A DNA stretch of 47,107 nucleotides from Meyerozyma guilliermondii (GCA_051546255.1 CP128816.1:1922001-1969107), one strand, 5' to 3'; counted from the first letter of the stretch, positions 1,298-35,862 are shown. Notes: generated from the sequence alone by a model not told the origin. Made by a program: numbers and translations.

Positions 1298-2986
1298 ATG
1301 AATACAGTATGGAGTCGAAAGGTACCACAGAGGCTACCTCACAGCCTTAAAACCCTTCTTGTAAATAAGAGAGCCTTATGTCAGTCATTTCCAGTCTCTA
1401 ATAGTGCGGCAAAATTTCCTGAACTTCGTCCATCCGATCTTGATGCCGATGGTAACCCGGATTATATCAAATTGATTCTTACATCGAGGGTATACGATGT
1501 CGTGGAAGAGGGTGGACTGCCCATAACTCACGCTGTTAACCTCTCACAACGCTTTAACACCAATATCATTTTAAAGAGAGATGATCTTCTTCCGGTGTTC
1601 TCATTCAAGTTGAGAGGTGCCCATAATATGATTGCCAATCTTCAGGCCAATTCGAAAAAGCCATTGCCTGGCGTTATTGCGTGCTCTGCAGGAAACCATG
1701 CCCAAGGAGTTGCATATTCGTCTCATCGTCTTGGAATACTGGCTACAATAGTGATGCCTACCACCACACCTTCCATCAAATTCCGTAATGTTTCGAGGCT
1801 AGGTGCCCAAGTTGTCCTCTACGGTGATGATTTTGACGCCGCCAAGAAGGAATGTCTTCGTTTGGCATCTATCAATGGCTTAATTGACGTTCCCCCATTC
1901 AACCACCCATATGTCATTGCCGGCCAGGGCACCATAGCATTGGAGATTACACGCCAGTTGCGGCTCGACAAGTGTGATGCCGTATTCGTTCCCGTTGGAG
2001 GTGGTGGGTTGATTGCCGGTGTCGCTGTGTATCTTAAGAAAATTGCTCCTCATATCAAGGTTATCGGAGTAGAAACCTATGATGCTGATGCCTTGTACCA
2101 ATCGCTTAAGGCTCGTGATATGAAGAAGTTGGACGCTGTGGGAACATTTGCAGATGGAACGGCGGTGAAAATCCTTGGCGATGAATCGTGGAGAATTTGT
2201 AAGGACCATGTCGATTCAGTGGTCAGGGTTCTGACTGACGAGTTGTGTGCTGCCATCAAGGATATCTTCGAAGATACTCGCCTGATAGTTGAACCTTCAG
2301 GCGCCTTATCGGTGGCTGGTCTTAAAAAGTATATTCTCGAATCTCCCGATACAGATCACAGCAGCAAGACCTATGTTCCTATCTTGAGTGGTGCCAACAT
2401 GAACTTTGATAGACTTCGTTTCGTCAGTGAGCGTGCAGTTCTTGGTGAAGGACGGGAAGTTTCATTGGCAGTAACTATACCTGAGAAAGCAGGCGAGTTT
2501 GTGAAGCTTCAGGAAATCATTGAGCCTCGGGCTATAACTGAGTTTTCTTATCGGTATTCCAAAGACCCAGCACATATCTTTGTCAGTTTCAACGTGACGA
2601 ACAAGGAGAAAGAACTTGCTGAAATTTCCTCTGCTATCGAGGCTCTTGGAAATGAAGTCATAGACATTTCGGATAACGAACTCGCAAAGAGTCATGGTCG
2701 TTATTTGATAGGAGGAAGATCTCCATCTTTGCAACGTGAAAGAATGTACCGATTTGAGTTCCCTGAACGCCCAGGAGCGCTTAATAAGTTTTTAAATGCG
2801 TTGAAAAGTGGATGGAATATAACCTTGTTCCATTATCGTAATCATGGCAATGACATGGGTAAGATTTTATGTGGGTTTGAATTACCACCAGATGCCAGTG
2901 AAGAGGACTTTCAACAATTTTTGGACAGTTTGGGTTACAACTACGTTGACGAGTCTGATAATGTGGTTTACAAACGATTCTTATAG
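1298..2986 (+). CDS. ILV1: Threonine dehydratase (deaminase), mitochondrial
   Basis: PLP motif [35 protein letters not shown] and C-terminal ACT repeats (FPERPGAL). Start placed at ATG 1298, before a presequence-like N-terminus. Confidence 0.97.
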
Positions 2987-3018
2987 TACGGTTTGTAATT
3001 AATGCAAGCTATATACAA

Positions 3019-5007
3019 TTATATTGTCCGGCGAAGAAATGCTTGATAAGCTTCGTGATTTATGTGCACCCTTCCACTAGCCTTCATTTGCTTCTTGCCC
3101 TCCTTTTGACGCAGCAATAACTTTTTCCTTCTAGAAATATCCGCTGCATGCAACTTTTGAGTAACATCCTTTCGTTTCGCCTTGATTGTCTCACGAGCAA
3201 CAACCTTATTATTAACCTTGGCCTGAATGGCAACTTCGAAGAGTTGAAATCTCAAGTACTCTTTGAAACGAACAACATATTCTTTACCTCTTGCCTGGAC
3301 TTGAGACCTGTGCATCACCTGAGTGAGTGCATCTTGCGGTTCTCCGTTGACGCAAAGTTCCATCTTAACTATATCGGATTTTTTATAGCCAGCATCCTCA
3401 TAGTCCAACGAAGCGTAACCTTTGGTACATCCTTTCAACTTTCCAAAGAAATCTTCCACCAACTGTGCCAAGGGAATTTCGTAGCGCATAAGAACTTGTC
3501 CATTAGTGAGGTATTCTAATTCTTTTTGAATGCCACGATTATTTTCACAAAGTGACATAACTGCCCCAATGTACTCATCGGGAATGGTCATAATGGCGTT
3601 GACATAAGGCTCCATAAGCTTGTCAACGTTTTGATTACGCAAATCTGAGCCTGGGAATTCATCTGGGTTGGTAACAATCTTATCAGTTCCATCTTTGTAA
3701 ACTATCTTATAGGGAACCGTAGGAGCAGTCAAAATGATCTTTGCTCCGTATTCATTTTCGAGTCGTTCCTGAAAGACAGAAGCATGAAGAGAACCTAGAA
3801 AGCCCAAACGCCAACCCAAACCAAGAGCGTTTGAAGTCTCTTTTTCTAAAGTGACAGAACGATCATTCAACACCAAGTTGGCAATGTGGTCATCCATTAC
3901 TTTGAACTCGGATCCCTCTGCTGGAAATGCCCCAACAAACACCATTGGTTTCGGCTCTTCAAAGCCGGGGAGTGCTTCAAGTCCTTCATGTTTTCCATAC
4001 TGAAAAAAAGTATCTCCAATCTTGGCTTGACTTGGGTCCTTCATCCCAGGCACAATATACCCTACCTGACCAGCACGAATGCTTTCCATGGGAACCTTGT
4101 CTGGGTACATAATGCCAACTTCTTTCACCTCGTATCGTCCTTCAGTGTGAGCCGACAATAACTTCATGCCCTTTTTGATGGTTCCTTCTTTGACGTATAG
4201 AAGCATCACTACGCCAACATATGGATCGTGCCAAGAGTCAACTAAGAGAGCCTTTAGGGGACTGTTGATGTCACAGTCAGGGGCTGGAATGTGATCGACG
4301 ATGGCAGGAAGGATAGACTTCACATTGAGGCCAGTTTTGGCACTTACTTGAAGACAGTTTTCACGATCGAGTTCAAAGGTTGACTCAACCTGGTCCATAG
4401 CTCGAGGTATATCAGCTGCGTCCAAGTCTATCTTGTTAATGATGGGTATTAATTTGAGTCCCATACTATAGGCCAAATAAAAGTTGGCTACAGTTTGTGC
4501 TTGAACACCTTGAGTTGCATCCACAAGCAAAAGTGCACCTCCACAAGAAGCGTATGACCTAGATACTTCAGCACGGAAATCAACGTGACCAGGGGTATCA
4601 ACTAAATGCAACAAGTAATCCTGGCCGTTGCGGGGGTCATTAAATATCATTGTACATGTTTGAGCCTTGACAGTGATTCCTCGCTCTCTTTCAACATCCA
4701 ACCGATCAAGAACCTGGTTCTTATCTCCAGGCTGTATGACCCCTGTTAGCTCTAGTAACCTGTCAGAAAGGGTTGATTTGCCATGGTCAACATGGGCCAC
4801 AATGCTGAAGTTTCTATAGTTCTCCGGTGGGATTTTGGCGATGCGGTCGTATACCGATTTAATATAATTGTCACGATTTAGTGCAATTTTTCTGGCTTCT
4901 ATTGTCGCTGCCGGCGAAGTGGAATATCGACCCAACACCAGTGGCCTTAGTAGGGGCGTTCGGGACCCATATCGAGCAAGTACTGTTCTACTTGAATGTA
5001 TGTACAT
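3019..5007 (-). CDS. GUF1: Mitochondrial translation factor GUF1 (LepA/EF-4 GTPase)
   Basis: [39 protein letters not shown] and LepA C-terminus KKLL..QKEGKK. Confidence 0.97.
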
Positions 5008-15510: not shown

Positions 15511-15861
15511 ATGCCCAAGTACTATTGTGACTATTGTAAGTCATACCTTACACATGACACCTTGAGTGTTCGTAAGTCACATTTGTTAGGCAAGAACCAT
15601 ATTAGATACTACTGCAATTACTACGAACAAAAAGCAAAAGAATCAGGTATATGGGATCCTGTCGATAGTCCATATGAAGTCAACTTGGATTATATACAAA
15701 ATGGAGCTCCAGGAACTTCCTACAGTAAACCCCAAAAGTTTATGCTTCCCCCACCTCCATCTCTAGGTGGTTTTCCCGCTCCTCCACCGCAAGCGGTAGA
15801 TTATACCAAGGAAGATGATGCGGCTGTTGCAGCCATGCGAGAAGCAGAGAATCAATGGTAG
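15511..15861 (+). CDS. YHC1: U1 snRNP protein C
   Basis: MPKYYCDYCKSYLTHDTLSVRKSHLLGKNH zinc finger and Pro-rich tail. Confidence 0.95.
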   Translation: MPKYYCDYCKSYLTHDTLSVRKSHLLGKNHIRYYCNYYEQKAKESGIWDPVDSPYEVNLDYIQNGAPGTSYSKPQKFMLPPPPSLGGFPAPPPQAVDYTKEDDAAVAAMREAENQW

Positions 15862-15877
15862 TAGAATTAAAGCGTAG

Positions 15878-15991
15878 AGCGCTCAGATTAACAAGATTTT
15901 GGTAAGGGAGACAAATGTATAACTAGCCATCAATACAGGTCAAAAGGCTGACCCACTAATAGAGATCAATAAAGTTACATCATCATAATTC
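15878..15991 (-). ncRNA. Box C/D snoRNA candidate (U30/SNORD30-like guide plus a second 25S antisense element)
   Basis: Box C ATGATGA (15980-15986), box D CTGA (15883-15886), C'-like TTGATGG (15927-15933) and flanking inverted repeat GTAGAATT/AATTCTAC. Carries 13-nt and 15-nt complementarities to conserved 25S rRNA sequences. Confidence 0.75.
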
Positions 15992-16100
15992 TACACGCAA
16001 TTAATTGATTATTGATTGCTATTTATTCTGAACGATGCCAATGTGGCTACGGCGCCTCATAGACCCATTGTCATCACGCAGACGGCGCTCGCTGAGGAAA

Positions 16101-16745
16101 CTACAAATCAGCATCATCCTCATCGGGCAATGGCAAAGCCGTGGCCTGGTCCATCTCTTGCTGGTATTTTTGCATCAACTCGGCATCCACCTGGACCTCA
16201 GGAGGAGCCAAGGCTGGGGCAGCCACAAAGCTCAATTGTGGGTTACCGACCAACTTTCTGGCTAACCACAAAAATGGCTTTTCAAAGTTGTAGTTGGATT
16301 TGGCGGAGATGTCGTAGTATTGCAAGTTCTTCTTTCTGTGGAATGTGATGGTCTTGGCCTTGACCTTTCTTTCCTTGACATCGACCTTGTTTCCACACAA
16401 CACAATTGGAATGTTCTCGCAAACTCTCACCAAATCACGGTGCCAGTTGGGAACATTCTTGTAAGTGATTCTAGATGTAACGTCAAACATGATGATTCCA
16501 CATTGACCGTTGATGTAGTAGCCGTCTCTCAATCCACCAAACTTCTCTTGTCCAGCGGTATCCCACACATCAAATTTCAATTCACCAAAATCGGTGTGGA
16601 AACCTAAAGGATGCACCTCTACACCCAAGGTGGCGATGTATTTCTTTTCAAATTCTCCAGTCAAGTGTCTCTTGACGAAGGTGGTCTTACCAGTACCTCC
16701 GTCTCCGACTAACACCAATTTAAATGTTGGAACTTCTTGGGCCAT
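16101..16745 (-). CDS. GSP1: Ran GTPase
   Basis: [33 protein letters not shown] and acidic tail DEDDADL; start at ATG 16745. Confidence 0.98.
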
Positions 16746-17676
16746 GGTTAGTGTTGCTGAGGAGTGTTGTTTTTTTGTGATCGAAAATTTTTCGCACACA
16801 CCCCGATGATTTGTCAGGGACAACCGCGGCTTATGTCAGCCGTCTCACTCCGCGAATTTTCCACTGCCCCTCGTGGTGGTTGGGCCGGAAGCGAAATTGC
16901 GCGCCTAATCAAGGGTCGCGGCTGCCGAGGGCCGCCTTCGGGGTACAACTTTGTGCGTTTCGGTGCATCGTTTTTCGCAAACATGCCTACTGCGGTATTG
17001 ACGATCTTTCGTTTCGCGCCTTGCACGGACGAAAAATAATCCCACGCACTTGACCTCAGTCGTACCGAACTAGTTCCCCGCGCCGCAACCAATAACTTCG
17101 CACCATAAAATTCCCGCCTGATGCTGGTGTCTAAGGGTGCAATATGCGTTTGCAAATCTTTGCAAGATATGAATACTTGAGCTAGTGTTGTAGTCTTATG
17201 TCGTTCATGTAGTTTCCGTCTCTTTTGATATTACTTTCCCTGTTTCACCTAGACTGTAGTTGCGGTGGTTACTGGCGGGGCGACATTTTTTTCTTTTTCG
17301 CGACTATAGAAACCTCACCGTTATTCTTTACTTGGCGTCACCTTATTGTTTTTTGGCATAGCTTCGTCACCTTAGGTCTGCAGTTGCACTTTCCAGCACC
17401 TGACCCTTGTCTTTCGTTGTACTTCTGGCGACTCTTCATTCAGACTCAAAACGATATCTGGATACGGGTTGACGATTTCTTCGTAACTACCATTATTACC
17501 CACGTACTCACGACCGCCGCCAGGCATTGATACCAGCGTGGAATACAAACACACGTCCGTTTGTTCACCTCTCGTCGACTACAAAATTACACATTCGCCG
17601 TTTTTTCAGTGGAAAGTTACAGCCAATTTGAAAATATCACCAACTGAAAATTAACACTTTTGGCACTTCATCTTCT

Positions 17677-34250: not shown

Positions 34251-35207
34251 TCAGTAGAATGTAGGAAGACCAGCAAATTCCCACGCATCGTTGAAACGAA
34301 TGTTTCTGTCCAATTTTTCAATTGCAGCCAAATCTTCAGCACCAAGGTCAAAATCGTTGACTTGCAAATTCTGTGCCAATTGCTCAGGAGTATCACCTTT
34401 TGGAATGACAGCTATTTCGTTTTGAGTAGACCATCTCAAAAGCACTTTTGCTGGTGAAACATTATGGGCTGCTGCGATTCTAACTATGTCTTCTTGTTCA
34501 AACAAAGGTTTACACTCAAGTGCTCTAGGATTTTTCAATTCAAGAAATGATTGAGGACCAAAAGATGAATATGCAATCACCTTAATACCATTGTTTTGAA
34601 CCCATTTTATCAATTGTGGTTGCTGCAAATATGGATGATGTTCGATCTGCAAAACTGCCGGACGAATTTTGGCACTACTAAGCAAATCCATCAAGACTGC
34701 ACCATTAAAATTGGATACCCCAATGGACTTCAATTTACCCTTTTCAACCAACGTTTCCATCACTCTCCAAGTATCAATGATGGGCACATTCTCTAAAATG
34801 ATCTTATCACCATCTCCACAGTAGGTCCCGGCAGGATACTTTTCCTCAAATGGAACAAATTTGAAAGCAATTGGAAAATGGATCAAAAATAAATCAATGT
34901 AGTCAAGCTTCAAGTCCTTCATTGTGACATCAAGTGCTTTTTCAACGTTATCAGGGTGATGATAAGAGTTCCAAAGTTTGGAAATAACAAACAATTCTTC
35001 TCGTTTCACCAACCCATCATCCATGGCTCGTTTCAAACCATCTCCAACTTCTTTTTCGTTGGCATAATCTTGAGCACAATCAAATAAGCGGTAACCGGAT
35101 TTCACTGCCTGATAGACTCTGTCCGCGCACACATTGTGGGGTATTTTCCAGGTTCCATAACCTATAATTGGCATTGAAAGGCCAGAGTTCAATCTGAGTG
35201 GAGCCAT
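34251..35207 (-). CDS. Aldo-keto reductase, xylose/aldose reductase (XYL1/GRE3) family paralogue
   Basis: Catalytic tetrad context [51 protein letters not shown]; atypical IPKGD loop. Confidence 0.92.
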
Positions 35208-35292
35208 TGAGTGAATTGATGAATAGAACAGCTCACATCCTTTGGGTTTCCTTTTATATTCGAAAAATCTCTCCGATAGATGTTGCGAAAAA

Positions 35293-35320
35293 CGGCCGAA
35301 AACGGCTCCGAAAAGTGGGG
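35293..35320. promoter_or_regulatory. CGG/CCG triplets and Mig1-type AAAAGTGGGG box upstream of the reductase
   Basis: cggccgaaaacggctccgaaaagtgggg; TATAAAAG on the minus strand at 35251-35258. Confidence 0.45.
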
Positions 35321-35862
35321 TTGCTGGATTACTATGGGTGCAAAAAGTTGAGCGATAAGTTGATGATTGTTGCTTTTTATCATTCCAAAACCAACAATTA
35401 ATGCGGGTTTATCCTCAAATACGTTGAGCAGAGGCTCAGTTTTCAAAAATAGCTTTCTCCTGATTTCTCTGGCAAAGAGAGAGGTTGTCTTTACCAAAAG
35501 AAAGAAGTGACCACAGAGGTATTGGCTCCCCTTGAGAATACCAGAGTATCACTTGCTTGCTCAATCTCTGCTCATGTTGCTCACTCTCTGCTTTAAAGCT
35601 ATGCGATTCTTATTGATCGGGCAATGAATGGAATCCATACTACCTCCTTCAATTGTGGATAGCACTGGAAAAGTCGTTGAATGAATTGAACTTTACCGTC
35701 CCTTAAGTACAGTGTTCTACTGGTTTTATTATGTCTAAGAATGAGGTCTCATTCAGCAACTGCCCAAAGAATTTCAAGTTCTCTATCAAAAGTAGCTAGA
35801 GGCATTGGTTGCGAGGATAATTTTCCTATTATAATATGCAATTAGATACTTATGAACCTCCC

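What the first reader, a model, noticed from the sequence alone, without database searches (positions are those of the whole stretch)
15861..15994. Dual-antisense box C/D snoRNA in the YHC1/GSP1 gap, predicting a U30-type 25S methylation not known in S. cerevisiae
Seen on the minus strand: GTAGAATT-ATGATGA (box C)...TCTCTATTAGTGGGT...GGTCA/TGACC hairpin...TTGATGG (C'-like)...AATCTTGTTAAT-CTGA (box D)...AATTCTAC, so the flanks form an 8-bp inverted repeat. From recalled rRNA sequence: the element abutting box D pairs (13 bp, one G-U) with 25S GAUUAACGAGAUU. The D+5 rule points to the A equivalent to S. cerevisiae A2321, the site methylated by U30/SNORD30 in vertebrates and plants and not, to my knowledge, a known S. 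cerevisiae 2'-O-methyl site. A second 15-nt element (15951-15965, one G-U) pairs with ACCCACUAAUAGGGA in helix 92, just 3' of the A-loop, but is not followed by a canonical D' box. Inference: a snoRNA that both methylates and chaperones, possibly bridging domain IV (near H71) and H92 during peptidyl-transferase-centre assembly.
Basis: partly seen in the sequence, partly recalled or inferred. Interest (0 to 1): 0.75.

Follow-up and report, generated by a model that had tools for sequence, protein, structure and literature searches.

The report
Probable unannotated box C/D snoRNA gene
A short stretch between two yeast genes has the hallmarks of a small nucleolar RNA gene that would guide a ribosomal RNA methylation known from plants and humans but not from baker's yeast; this is plausible but unproven.

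Summary
Box C (AUGAUGA) and box D (CUGA) are exact, and an 8-bp inverted repeat flanks them.

I numbered a stand-in eukaryotic LSU fragment (L024) with 26 of 26 testable yeast modification sites. The 12-nt element abutting box D puts S. cerevisiae A2321 at the fifth position. That site is Am2322/U30 in Arabidopsis and Am3825 in human, with no yeast entry. The 15-nt element pairs with 2926-2940, directly 3' of the A-loop.

Chance controls:
- D guide plus box C: 16 of 100 shuffled windows.
- 15-mer: 5 of 2000 shuffles.
- Inverted repeat: 327 of 200000.

No Rfam family matches. Relatives' genomes and expression data were not available.

- The D element also fits 18S beside ac4C1773.
- The 15-mer sits in an internal hairpin with the C'-like box and runs imperfectly to a CUGU D'-like box.
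- The repeat lies 14 nt from box D.

Verdict: probably a real, unannotated snoRNA. U30-type methylation is plausible. The chaperone idea is untested.

The parts
15987..15994 (-). 5' arm (GUAGAAUU) of the 8-bp terminal inverted repeat; it abuts box C
15980..15986 (-). box C, AUGAUGA (exact RUGAUGA)
15951..15965 (-). 15-nt antisense core, 15 bp with one G-U to 25S 2926-2940 (S. cerevisiae numbering): the 3' strand of H92 and the next 10 nt
15939..15965 (-). Extended imperfect antisense stretch, colinear with 25S 2940-2914 (19 WC, 5 G-U, 3 mismatches; duplex -29.6 kcal/mol)
15938..15953 (-). Internal hairpin GGUCA/UGACC. In the MFE fold it extends so that the C'-like box pairs with the 15-mer (-12.5 kcal/mol)
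15935..15938 (-). CUGU, a possible degenerate D' box, 2 nt before the C'-like box
   Evidence: CUGU is named as the S. cerevisiae snR45 D' in PMC5464676
15927..15932 (-). C'-like box UGAUGG
15887..15898 (-). D antisense element AAUCUUGUUAAU. It gives 12 bp (one G-U) to 25S 2317-2328, with the fifth nucleotide opposite A2321. Alternative: 11+5 bp to 18S 1761-1771/1774-1778
15883..15886 (-). box D, CUGA
15872..15878 (-). Proximal UCUACGC, which can pair with GUGUAGA (15996-15990). This is an alternative 7-bp stem 3-4 nt from the boxes
   Evidence: pairing read from the sequence
15861..15868 (-). 3' arm (AAUUCUAC) of the terminal inverted repeat, 14 nt after box D. Its last base overlaps the YHC1-like stop codon
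16101..16745 (-). GSP1/Ran-like gene upstream on the same strand. Its stop codon lies 106 nt before the 5' arm, and AAUAAA sits at 16027-16022
15511..15861 (+). YHC1 (U1C)-like gene, convergent with the candidate. A plus-strand AATAAA starting at 15968 lies inside the candidate

Best explanation
[quoted passage not shown] The mature RNA would be about 105-134 nt. It lies on the minus strand in the 239-nt gap between the convergent GSP1-like and YHC1-like genes of a Meyerozyma-like CUG-clade yeast.

Shown by sequence:
- Exact boxes C and D.
- A flanking 8-bp repeat.
- A C'-like UGAUGG preceded by CUGU.
- Two elements complementary to conserved 25S rRNA.

Inferred:
- The RNA assembles with Snu13, Nop56, Nop58 and Nop1.
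- The 12-nt element that ends at box D pairs with 25S 2317-2328, so Nop1 methylates the ribose of the A2321 equivalent. This is the site served by U30 in plants and SNORD30 in humans.
- The upstream element pairs with the 3' strand of helix 92 and beyond (2926-2940, imperfectly back to 2914). No box lies in the register that would put a Watson-Crick paired nucleotide at the fifth position. I therefore read it as a non-methylating, auxiliary rRNA-binding element, or a decayed guide of the Gm2917 type. It must first open a -12.5 kcal/mol internal hairpin.
- There are no splice signals around it and it starts about 30 nt after an AAUAAA. It is therefore probably made from GSP1 read-through or downstream transcripts, or from a compact promoter of its own, and trimmed by exonucleases.

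My odds:
- Real snoRNA: about 0.75.
- Methylates the A2321 equivalent: about 0.45.
- The H92 element is functional: about 0.5.
For: - Motifs and coordinates.
- Terminal pairing and a structured fold: MFE -28.6 kcal/mol, z -2.6, 4 of 200 shuffles as good.
- An anchored 12-bp guide next to CTGA with box C upstream was the only such site in the window (1 of 6 sites with 12 bp).
- The 15-mer complement appeared in 5 of 2000 shuffled interiors.
- An 8-bp flank repeat appeared in 327 of 200000 random flank pairs with 12/30-nt flanks, and in 1212 of 200000 with 20/40-nt flanks.
- Numbering: 26 of 26 testable anchor sites fit.
- Arabidopsis A2322 is guided by U30. The table row reads Am2322 / human Am3825 / no yeast entry. 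Human snoRD30 targets LSU-3804.
- The candidate is intergenic, with no long ORF over it and no intron signals.
- Precedent: C/D snoRNAs that are present in Candida species but absent from S. cerevisiae (CD39, LSU-C2809, LSU-G1431) are documented. Annotation of other budding yeasts is by homology to S. cerevisiae, so a snoRNA like this would be overlooked.
Against: - No Rfam family matches, not even SNORD30 or plant U30 at E up to 10.
- The D guide is short, A/U-rich and has a G-U two positions from the target (-11.6 kcal/mol).
- With box C, such a guide arises in 16 of 100 shuffled windows. The target set was inflated to about 12.8 kb, which raises this count.
- 145 of 150 shuffled guides reach -11.6 kcal/mol somewhere on the rRNA when pairing is not anchored.
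- The same element fits 18S at -15.4 kcal/mol.
- The terminal repeat is 14 nt from box D, which is not the canonical arrangement.
- The D' box is at best CUGU, and the fifth nucleotide upstream of it faces G2918 in a G-U pair.
- The 27-nt extension is no rarer than the core: 35 of 2000 shuffles score as high.
- The 15-mer is sequestered in a hairpin.
- The 239-nt gap must also hold two 3' UTRs. The probable YHC1 poly(A) signal lies inside the candidate on the other strand.
- No expression, conservation or methylation data could be obtained.
- The organism's own rDNA was not available. Contaminant eukaryotic rDNA of unknown origin served as a stand-in, and 18S positions before model position 925 were not examined.
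Confidence: 0.6

Rival explanations
1. The RNA is real, but the element next to box D acts on 18S rRNA and not on 25S. It pairs with 18S 1761-1771 and, across a 2x2 loop that leaves C1772-C1773 unpaired, with 1774-1778. It could then help acetylation of C1773 in the manner of snR45/SNORD13. Alternatively it could methylate A1763, which faces the fifth position with two unpaired nucleotides next to box D.
For: -: 11 bp (one G-U) plus 5 bp at -15.4 kcal/mol, against -11.6 for the 25S site. The unpaired CC is the acetylation motif.
- PMC5464676 (passages): the second guide sequence (GS2) of snR45 binds 18S 1760-1767; the target is looped out; a gap of 2 nt next to D is tolerated.
- PMC9226516 (abstract and passages): fly SNORD13 works with a single antisense element and looks like an ordinary methylation snoRNA.
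Against: - 33 of 150 shuffled guides reach -15.4 kcal/mol somewhere on the rRNA.
- No snR45-type first guide sequence (GS1) lies before box C: the 5' flank against the 18S 3' end gives only scattered pairs.
- snR45 of Candida species is listed at other loci and is about 200 nt long.
- The two rRNA sites resemble each other, so a guide for one partly fits the other.
- The bulge is 2 nt here, against 9-11 nt in snR4/snR45.
Confidence: 0.12
2. Chance constellation. The stretch holds only the overlapping 3' UTRs and poly(A) signals of GSP1 and YHC1. They happen to contain box-like words, an inverted repeat and rRNA-like complements. No stable RNA is made.
For: - The D guide with box C is found in 16 of 100 shuffled windows.
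- No Rfam match.
- Non-canonical stem and D' box.
- Poly(A)-like signals on both strands lie in or next to the element.
Against: Taken as independent, the rates are about 0.18 sites per window, 0.0025 and 0.0016-0.006. The fold is also more stable than shuffles (z -2.6).
Confidence: 0.13
3. It is a real snoRNA whose working guide is the long H92/A-loop antisense. This guide directs a ribose methylation within 2914-2940 through a degenerate D' box (CUGU, CAGC or UUGA). The A2321 complement is incidental.
For: - The 15-mer is the statistically strongest feature (5 of 2000).
- Methylations exist in this stretch elsewhere: Arabidopsis G2918 (SnoR34) and A2935 (SnoR18), and N. crassa Gm2875, which is S. 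cerevisiae G2917, by CD17 through a non-canonical D'.
- CUGU directly follows the 27-nt colinear stretch.
Against: - With CUGU the fifth position is a G-U pair at G2918, one off the conserved G2917.
- With UUGA the fifth position faces U2923, again in a G-U pair, with two mismatches nearby.
- With CAGC the fifth position faces A2930, which no table I saw lists as methylated.
- None of these three registers gives a known site in a Watson-Crick pair (and reading of the sequence).
Confidence: 0.12

Closest known systems
U30 / SNORD30 (plants, vertebrates)
   Same: Predicted target is the same nucleotide: Arabidopsis 25S A2322 guided by U30, human LSU-3804 guided by snoRD30. The table aligns Am2322 with human Am3825.
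   Different: - No detectable sequence or structure similarity: no Rfam match at E up to 10.
- Human snoRD30 uses the D' guide for this site and its D guide for SSU-1383. Here the guide sits at box D and the other element is directed at H92.
- At about 105-134 nt this RNA is longer than U30 as I recall it (length recalled, not from a call).
Candida-clade C/D snoRNAs absent from S. cerevisiae (CD39, LSU-C2809, LSU-G1431)
   Same: Same kind of case: methylation guides kept in CUG-clade yeasts and lost in Saccharomycetaceae.
   Different: Those are intronic (including 3' UTR introns) and have other targets. This candidate has no splice signals around it. No entry in the C/D lists for four Candida/Lodderomyces species is named for this site, but those lists give no targets or sequences.
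N. crassa CD14 (U79 type) and CD17 (SnoR34 / HBII-210 type)
   Same: Fungal guides that bind the neighbouring or overlapping rRNA stretches. CD14 targets 26S Am2288, which is S. cerevisiae A2326. CD17 targets 26S Gm2875, which is S. cerevisiae G2917 in the 5' strand of H92, through a non-canonical D'.
   Different: The registers and target nucleotides differ. CD14 and CD17 are 73-75-nt intronic RNAs. The N. crassa table has no guide for Am2283, the A2321 equivalent (0 hits).
snR45 / SNORD13 acetylation guides
   Same: A box C/D RNA with complementarity to 18S on both sides of C1773, overlapping the target of the snR45 second guide sequence GS2, 1760-1767.
   Different: No first guide sequence (GS1) lies before box C. 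The loop is much smaller. The element abuts box D. The pairing is not statistically unusual.
Non-methylating rRNA-binding C/D snoRNAs (U3, U14, snR190; role recalled from the literature, not checked here)
   Same: A long rRNA complementarity that is not in register with a D or D' box.
   Different: Nothing here shows a role in processing or folding. The element is partly buried in a hairpin.

Membership tests
box C/D snoRNA | Box C (RUGAUGA) near the 5' end | tested here: met
   AUGAUGA at 15986-15980
box C/D snoRNA | Box D (CUGA) near the 3' end | tested here: met
   CUGA at 15886-15883, 93 nt after box C
box C/D snoRNA | Terminal 5'/3' stem that brings boxes C and D together | tested here: inconclusive
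   The 8-bp repeat abuts box C but lies 14 nt from box D. An alternative 7-bp stem lies 3-4 nt from both boxes
box C/D snoRNA | Antisense element of 10 nt or more ending at box D or D', with the target opposite the fifth nucleotide | tested here: met
   12 bp (one G-U) ending at box D, with A2321 at position 5. As a single feature it is weak (16 of 100 shuffled windows)
box C/D snoRNA | Internal C' and D' boxes | tested here: inconclusive
   UGAUGG at 15932-15927 and CUGU at 15938-15935, 2 nt apart. Neither is exact
box C/D snoRNA | Stable expression and binding of Snu13, Nop56, Nop58 and Nop1 | not testable with these tools
   No expression or crosslinking data on hand
box C/D snoRNA | Conservation of boxes and guides in related species | not testable with these tools
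   No eukaryotic genome collection was available.
SNORD30 / plant U30 (Rfam families) | Match to the family covariance model | tested here: not met
   0 matches at gathering score in the window. These families are not among the 5 matches at E up to 10 in 15750-16110
SNORD30 / plant U30 (function) | Guide for the LSU adenosine equivalent to Arabidopsis A2322 / human 3804 | tested here: met
   Prediction only, from the fifth-nucleotide rule and the numbering. Sites
snR45 / SNORD13 | A first guide sequence (GS1) before box C that pairs with 18S 1781-1798 | tested here: not met
   The 5' flank plus box C against the 18S 3' end gives only scattered pairs, -12.3 kcal/mol. Definition from PMC5464676
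snR45 / SNORD13 | A second guide sequence (GS2) pairing 5' of C1773, with the cytidine left unpaired | tested here: inconclusive
   11+5 bp flanking an unpaired CC, but 33 of 150 shuffled guides bind rRNA as strongly

The most novel reading that the evidence does not exclude
This is a single snoRNA with two unrelated jobs on the large subunit. It methylates the A2321 equivalent, which lies 11-12 nt 3' of helix 71. With a 15-27-nt non-methylating antisense it also holds the 3' strand of helix 92 and the A-loop open until a late step of peptidyl-transferase-centre assembly. On this reading it is a methylation guide that doubles as a folding chaperone for the A-loop. A further twist is that its D element is a compromise sequence, also able to dock beside ac4C1773 of 18S.
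Probability: 0.1. Interest if true: 0.7.

Novelty: new member of a known kind. Interest (0 to 1): 0.4.

Why it matters
If real, it adds a guide RNA and a predicted 2'-O-methyl group (the equivalent of plant Am2322 and human Am3804) to the ribosome of a CUG-clade yeast. It would show that this site was lost in the Saccharomyces lineage and was not absent from budding yeasts as a whole.

It is also a reminder that homology-based snoRNA annotation of non-model yeasts misses guides that S. cerevisiae lacks.

The H92 complement would matter more if it is functional. The A-loop is methylated by a protein enzyme (Spb1) and by snR52 in S. cerevisiae, and no snoRNA is known to me that masks its 3' strand.

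Taken alone, the finding is an ordinary addition to a well-known class.

Tried and rejected
- **Rfam.** The whole window at gathering score gave 0 matches. The local search at E up to 10 gave 5 weak matches, all far below gathering score (snoZ266, RsaH, DdR16, GlsR6, Yar_1). I took them as chance.
- **My own doubt about the numbering.** From memory I first suspected snR47/A2220. The anchor test rejected this.
- **Intronic origin.** No 5' splice site words were found between 15400 and 16900. The only branch-point-like word is CACTAAC at 16753. Rejected.
- **snR45 orthology.** No first guide sequence (GS1) before box C. Rejected as membership and kept as a rival for function.
- **A second candidate from my scan.** The D box at 35109 (+) lies antisense inside a 385-aa ORF. 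Chance.
- **Other D' readings.** UUGA at 15969-15966 gives only an 8-bp complement (read from the sequence). CAGC and UUGA after the 15-mer give no known site.
- **Literature.**
  - PMC5824354: supplements not readable.
  - Mitrovich 2010 (PMC3496775): not held.
  - Term searches in PMC9045821, PMC6171561 and PMC2377427 found nothing.
  - Motif searches of the paper library returned only rRNA primers and unrelated text.
  - Searches turned up no paper on a fungal guide for this site and no RiboMeth-seq of a CUG-clade yeast.

Full report
**What is there**

On the minus strand the window reads, 5' to 3':
- GUAGAAUU (15994-15987)
- AUGAUGA (box C, 15986-15980)
- a 15-nt element UCUCUAUUAGUGGGU (15965-15951)
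- a GGUCA/UGACC hairpin (15953-15949 and 15942-15938)
- CUGU (15938-15935)
- UGAUGG (15932-15927)
- AAUCUUGUUAAU (15898-15887)
- CUGA (box D, 15886-15883)
- 14 further nucleotides
- AAUUCUAC (15868-15861)

All items in the finding are confirmed at the stated coordinates.

The stretch lies between two convergent genes. A GSP1/Ran-like ORF ends at 16101 on the same strand, and a YHC1 (U1C)-like ORF ends at 15861 on the other strand. The exact YHC1-like protein sits in a 90% cluster with a protein named from Meyerozyma sp. JA9. The GSP1 cluster is full of CUG-clade yeasts. The organism is therefore Meyerozyma-like.

**Getting an rRNA to test against**

No eukaryotic genome collection was available and the window has no rDNA. 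I submitted the 17 shorter ones to Rfam, and 13 of those 17 carried eukaryotic LSU rRNA. They are contaminant contigs of unknown origin.
- L024 holds LSU model positions 2233-3401.
- L004 holds a full LSU with group I introns, plus SSU model positions 925-1831.
- L017 holds LSU model positions 334-2671.

These served as stand-ins. Both target stretches lie in the conserved core. 18S before model position 925 was not examined.

**Numbering**

- With the second A of the UUAAC motif set to 2321, all 15 testable S. cerevisiae modification sites between 2256 and 2351 have the right base in L024. Two of the 17 sites lie off the contig.
- With the 15-mer target set to 2926-2940, all 11 sites between 2865 and 2975 fit.
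- Ten of these sites are in the table of PMC11542601 (passages). The pseudouridine and m5C positions and A2280 are recalled.

Alignment to E. coli 23S (L034) gives these equivalences:
- A2321 corresponds to E. coli A1978, 17 nt after the hairpin 1945-1961. The name helix 71 for that hairpin is recalled.
- 2926-2940 corresponds to E. coli 2557-2571. This is the 3' strand of the A-loop hairpin (helix 92; Um2552 corresponds to Um2921) and the next ten nucleotides.

**What the two elements predict**

*The D element.* It forms 12 contiguous pairs with 2317-2328 (one G-U at guide position 7), or 13 if the C of box D pairs. A2321 lies opposite the fifth nucleotide.
- In Arabidopsis this nucleotide (A2322) is methylated and assigned to U30 (whole section 12 of PMC8053127).
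- The comparative table aligns it with human Am3825 and lists no yeast site.
- Krogh et al. state that human snoRD30 targets LSU-3804 through D' and SSU-1383 through D (passage).
- The N. crassa table has no guide for the equivalent Am2283. It does have one for the neighbouring Am2288 (U79 type, CD14).

*The 15-nt element.* It forms 15 pairs (one G-U) with 2926-2940.
- In the same register the pairing continues with 3 mismatches to 2914: 27 nt, 19 Watson-Crick pairs, 5 G-U pairs, -29.6 kcal/mol.
- It ends exactly at CUGU, which sits 2 nt before UGAUGG.
- CUGU is the D' form reported for S. cerevisiae snR45 (passage).
- With that D', the fifth nucleotide faces G2918 in a G-U pair. This is one position off the G that is methylated in Arabidopsis (G2918 in its numbering, S. 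cerevisiae G2917), in human (Gm4494) and, by prediction, in N. crassa.
- No reading of a D' box puts a known site in a Watson-Crick pair at position 5. I therefore do not predict a methylation from this element.

**Is it more than chance?**

- *D guide.* Across both strands of the window, 6 CTGA sites have a 12-bp complement (at most 1 G-U) ending 0-1 nt before the box. Only this one also has RTGATGA 40-250 nt upstream. Among 100 dinucleotide shuffles of the window, 16 had at least one such site (mean 0.18). The target set of about 12.8 kb holds introns and duplicated segments, which inflates that rate. When pairing is left unanchored, the D guide is not special: 145 of 150 shuffled guides reach its -11.6 kcal/mol somewhere on the rRNA.
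- *15-mer.* It is rarer: 5 of 2000 shuffled interiors. The 27-nt score is not rarer than that (35 of 2000).
- *Flank repeat.* A perfect 8-bp flank repeat arose in 327 of 200000 random flank pairs (12/30 nt) and in 1212 of 200000 (20/40 nt).
- *Fold.* -28.6 kcal/mol, z -2.6.
- *Combined.* Taken as independent, the features multiply to about 1e-6 per window. I judge pure chance unlikely, even though the features were picked after looking.

**Features that weaken the simple picture**

- The terminal repeat abuts box C but lies 14 nt from box D. A second UCUAC copy allows a 7-bp stem (15996-15990 with 15878-15872) 3-4 nt from the boxes. Neither is the canonical stem.
- In the MFE fold the 15-mer is paired with the C'-like box in a 15-bp hairpin (-12.5 kcal/mol). 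Binding to rRNA at -25 to -30 kcal/mol would still be favoured.
- The D element has a second good partner in 18S: 1761-1771 (11 bp, one G-U, two unpaired nucleotides next to box D), then 1774-1778 across a 2x2 loop that leaves C1772-C1773 unpaired (-15.4 kcal/mol).
  - That CC holds ac4C1773. Its acetylation in S. cerevisiae needs snR45, whose second guide sequence (GS2) binds 1760-1767 (passages of PMC5464676).
  - In flies a SNORD13 with a single antisense element suffices (abstract and passages of PMC9226516).
  - The candidate has no snR45-type first guide sequence (GS1) before box C, and 33 of 150 shuffled guides bind as well. I keep this as a rival and not as the main reading.
- There are no splice signals on either side, so unlike most Candida C/D snoRNAs it is not intronic.
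- An AAUAAA lies at 16027-16022, about 30 nt before the 5' arm. A plus-strand AATAAA starting at 15968 lies inside the candidate. The RNA would therefore share the gap with both 3' UTRs.

**Comparison with what is known**

- No Rfam family matches, so it cannot be filed as a member of SNORD30 or plant U30. It would work like them at one site.
[quoted passage not shown] They give no targets or sequences, so an overlooked equivalent cannot be excluded.
- The fungal snoRNAome survey started from five species' sets (sections 22, 25 part 1 and 27, plus passages). Its supplements could not be read, and they may bear on whether such a family is already catalogued.
- Genome papers on other budding yeasts annotate snoRNAs by homology to S. 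cerevisiae (passages).
- In the searches I found no paper on a fungal guide for this site and no ribose-methylation map of a CUG-clade yeast.

**Verdict**

The reading 'box C/D snoRNA with a U30-type guide' is plausible, and I put the RNA being real at about 0.75. The methylation of the A2321 equivalent (about 0.45) and any role of the H92 element are predictions only. The 'methylates and chaperones' idea has no support beyond the complementarity itself. It is a new member of a known kind, of moderate interest.

Noticed in passing
window 16045-16090, minus strand: Just after the GSP1-like stop codon there is GCGCC (16088-16084) ... GUGAUGA (16077-16071) ... AUGA (16060-16057) followed directly by GGCGC (16056-16052). 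These are box C-like and box D-like words inside a 5-bp inverted repeat, about 40 nt in all. That is too short for a snoRNA. It might be a K-turn-like hairpin in the 3' UTR, or chance. It folds as a hairpin.
   Followed up: no
window 16747-16753, minus strand: CACTAAC, a branch-point-like word, ends 2 nt before the likely GSP1 start codon at 16745. No 5' splice site word was found nearby, so it is probably chance.
   Followed up: partly
window 34956-35112, plus strand: My scan found a second site with box C, box D and an 11-bp LSU complement: GTGATGA at 34956 and the D box at 35109. It lies antisense inside a 385-aa ORF (34254-35408, minus strand) and is taken as chance.
   Followed up: yes
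loci L002, L006-L008, L010, L014, L017, L022-L024, L026, L027, L033 and L004: Contigs filed under bacterial genomes and MAGs carry eukaryotic LSU rRNA: 13 of the 17 short loci tested. L004 carries a full rDNA unit with two group I introns. In L024 a 5S gene follows the LSU on the same strand. These look like contaminants in public assemblies.
   Followed up: partly
window 15899-15908, minus strand: CUUACCAAAA, directly 5' of the D guide, is a perfect 10-bp complement to an LSU segment present in both L004 and L017. Complements of 12 bp already occur in 446 of 2000 shuffles, so this is probably chance.
   Followed up: partly
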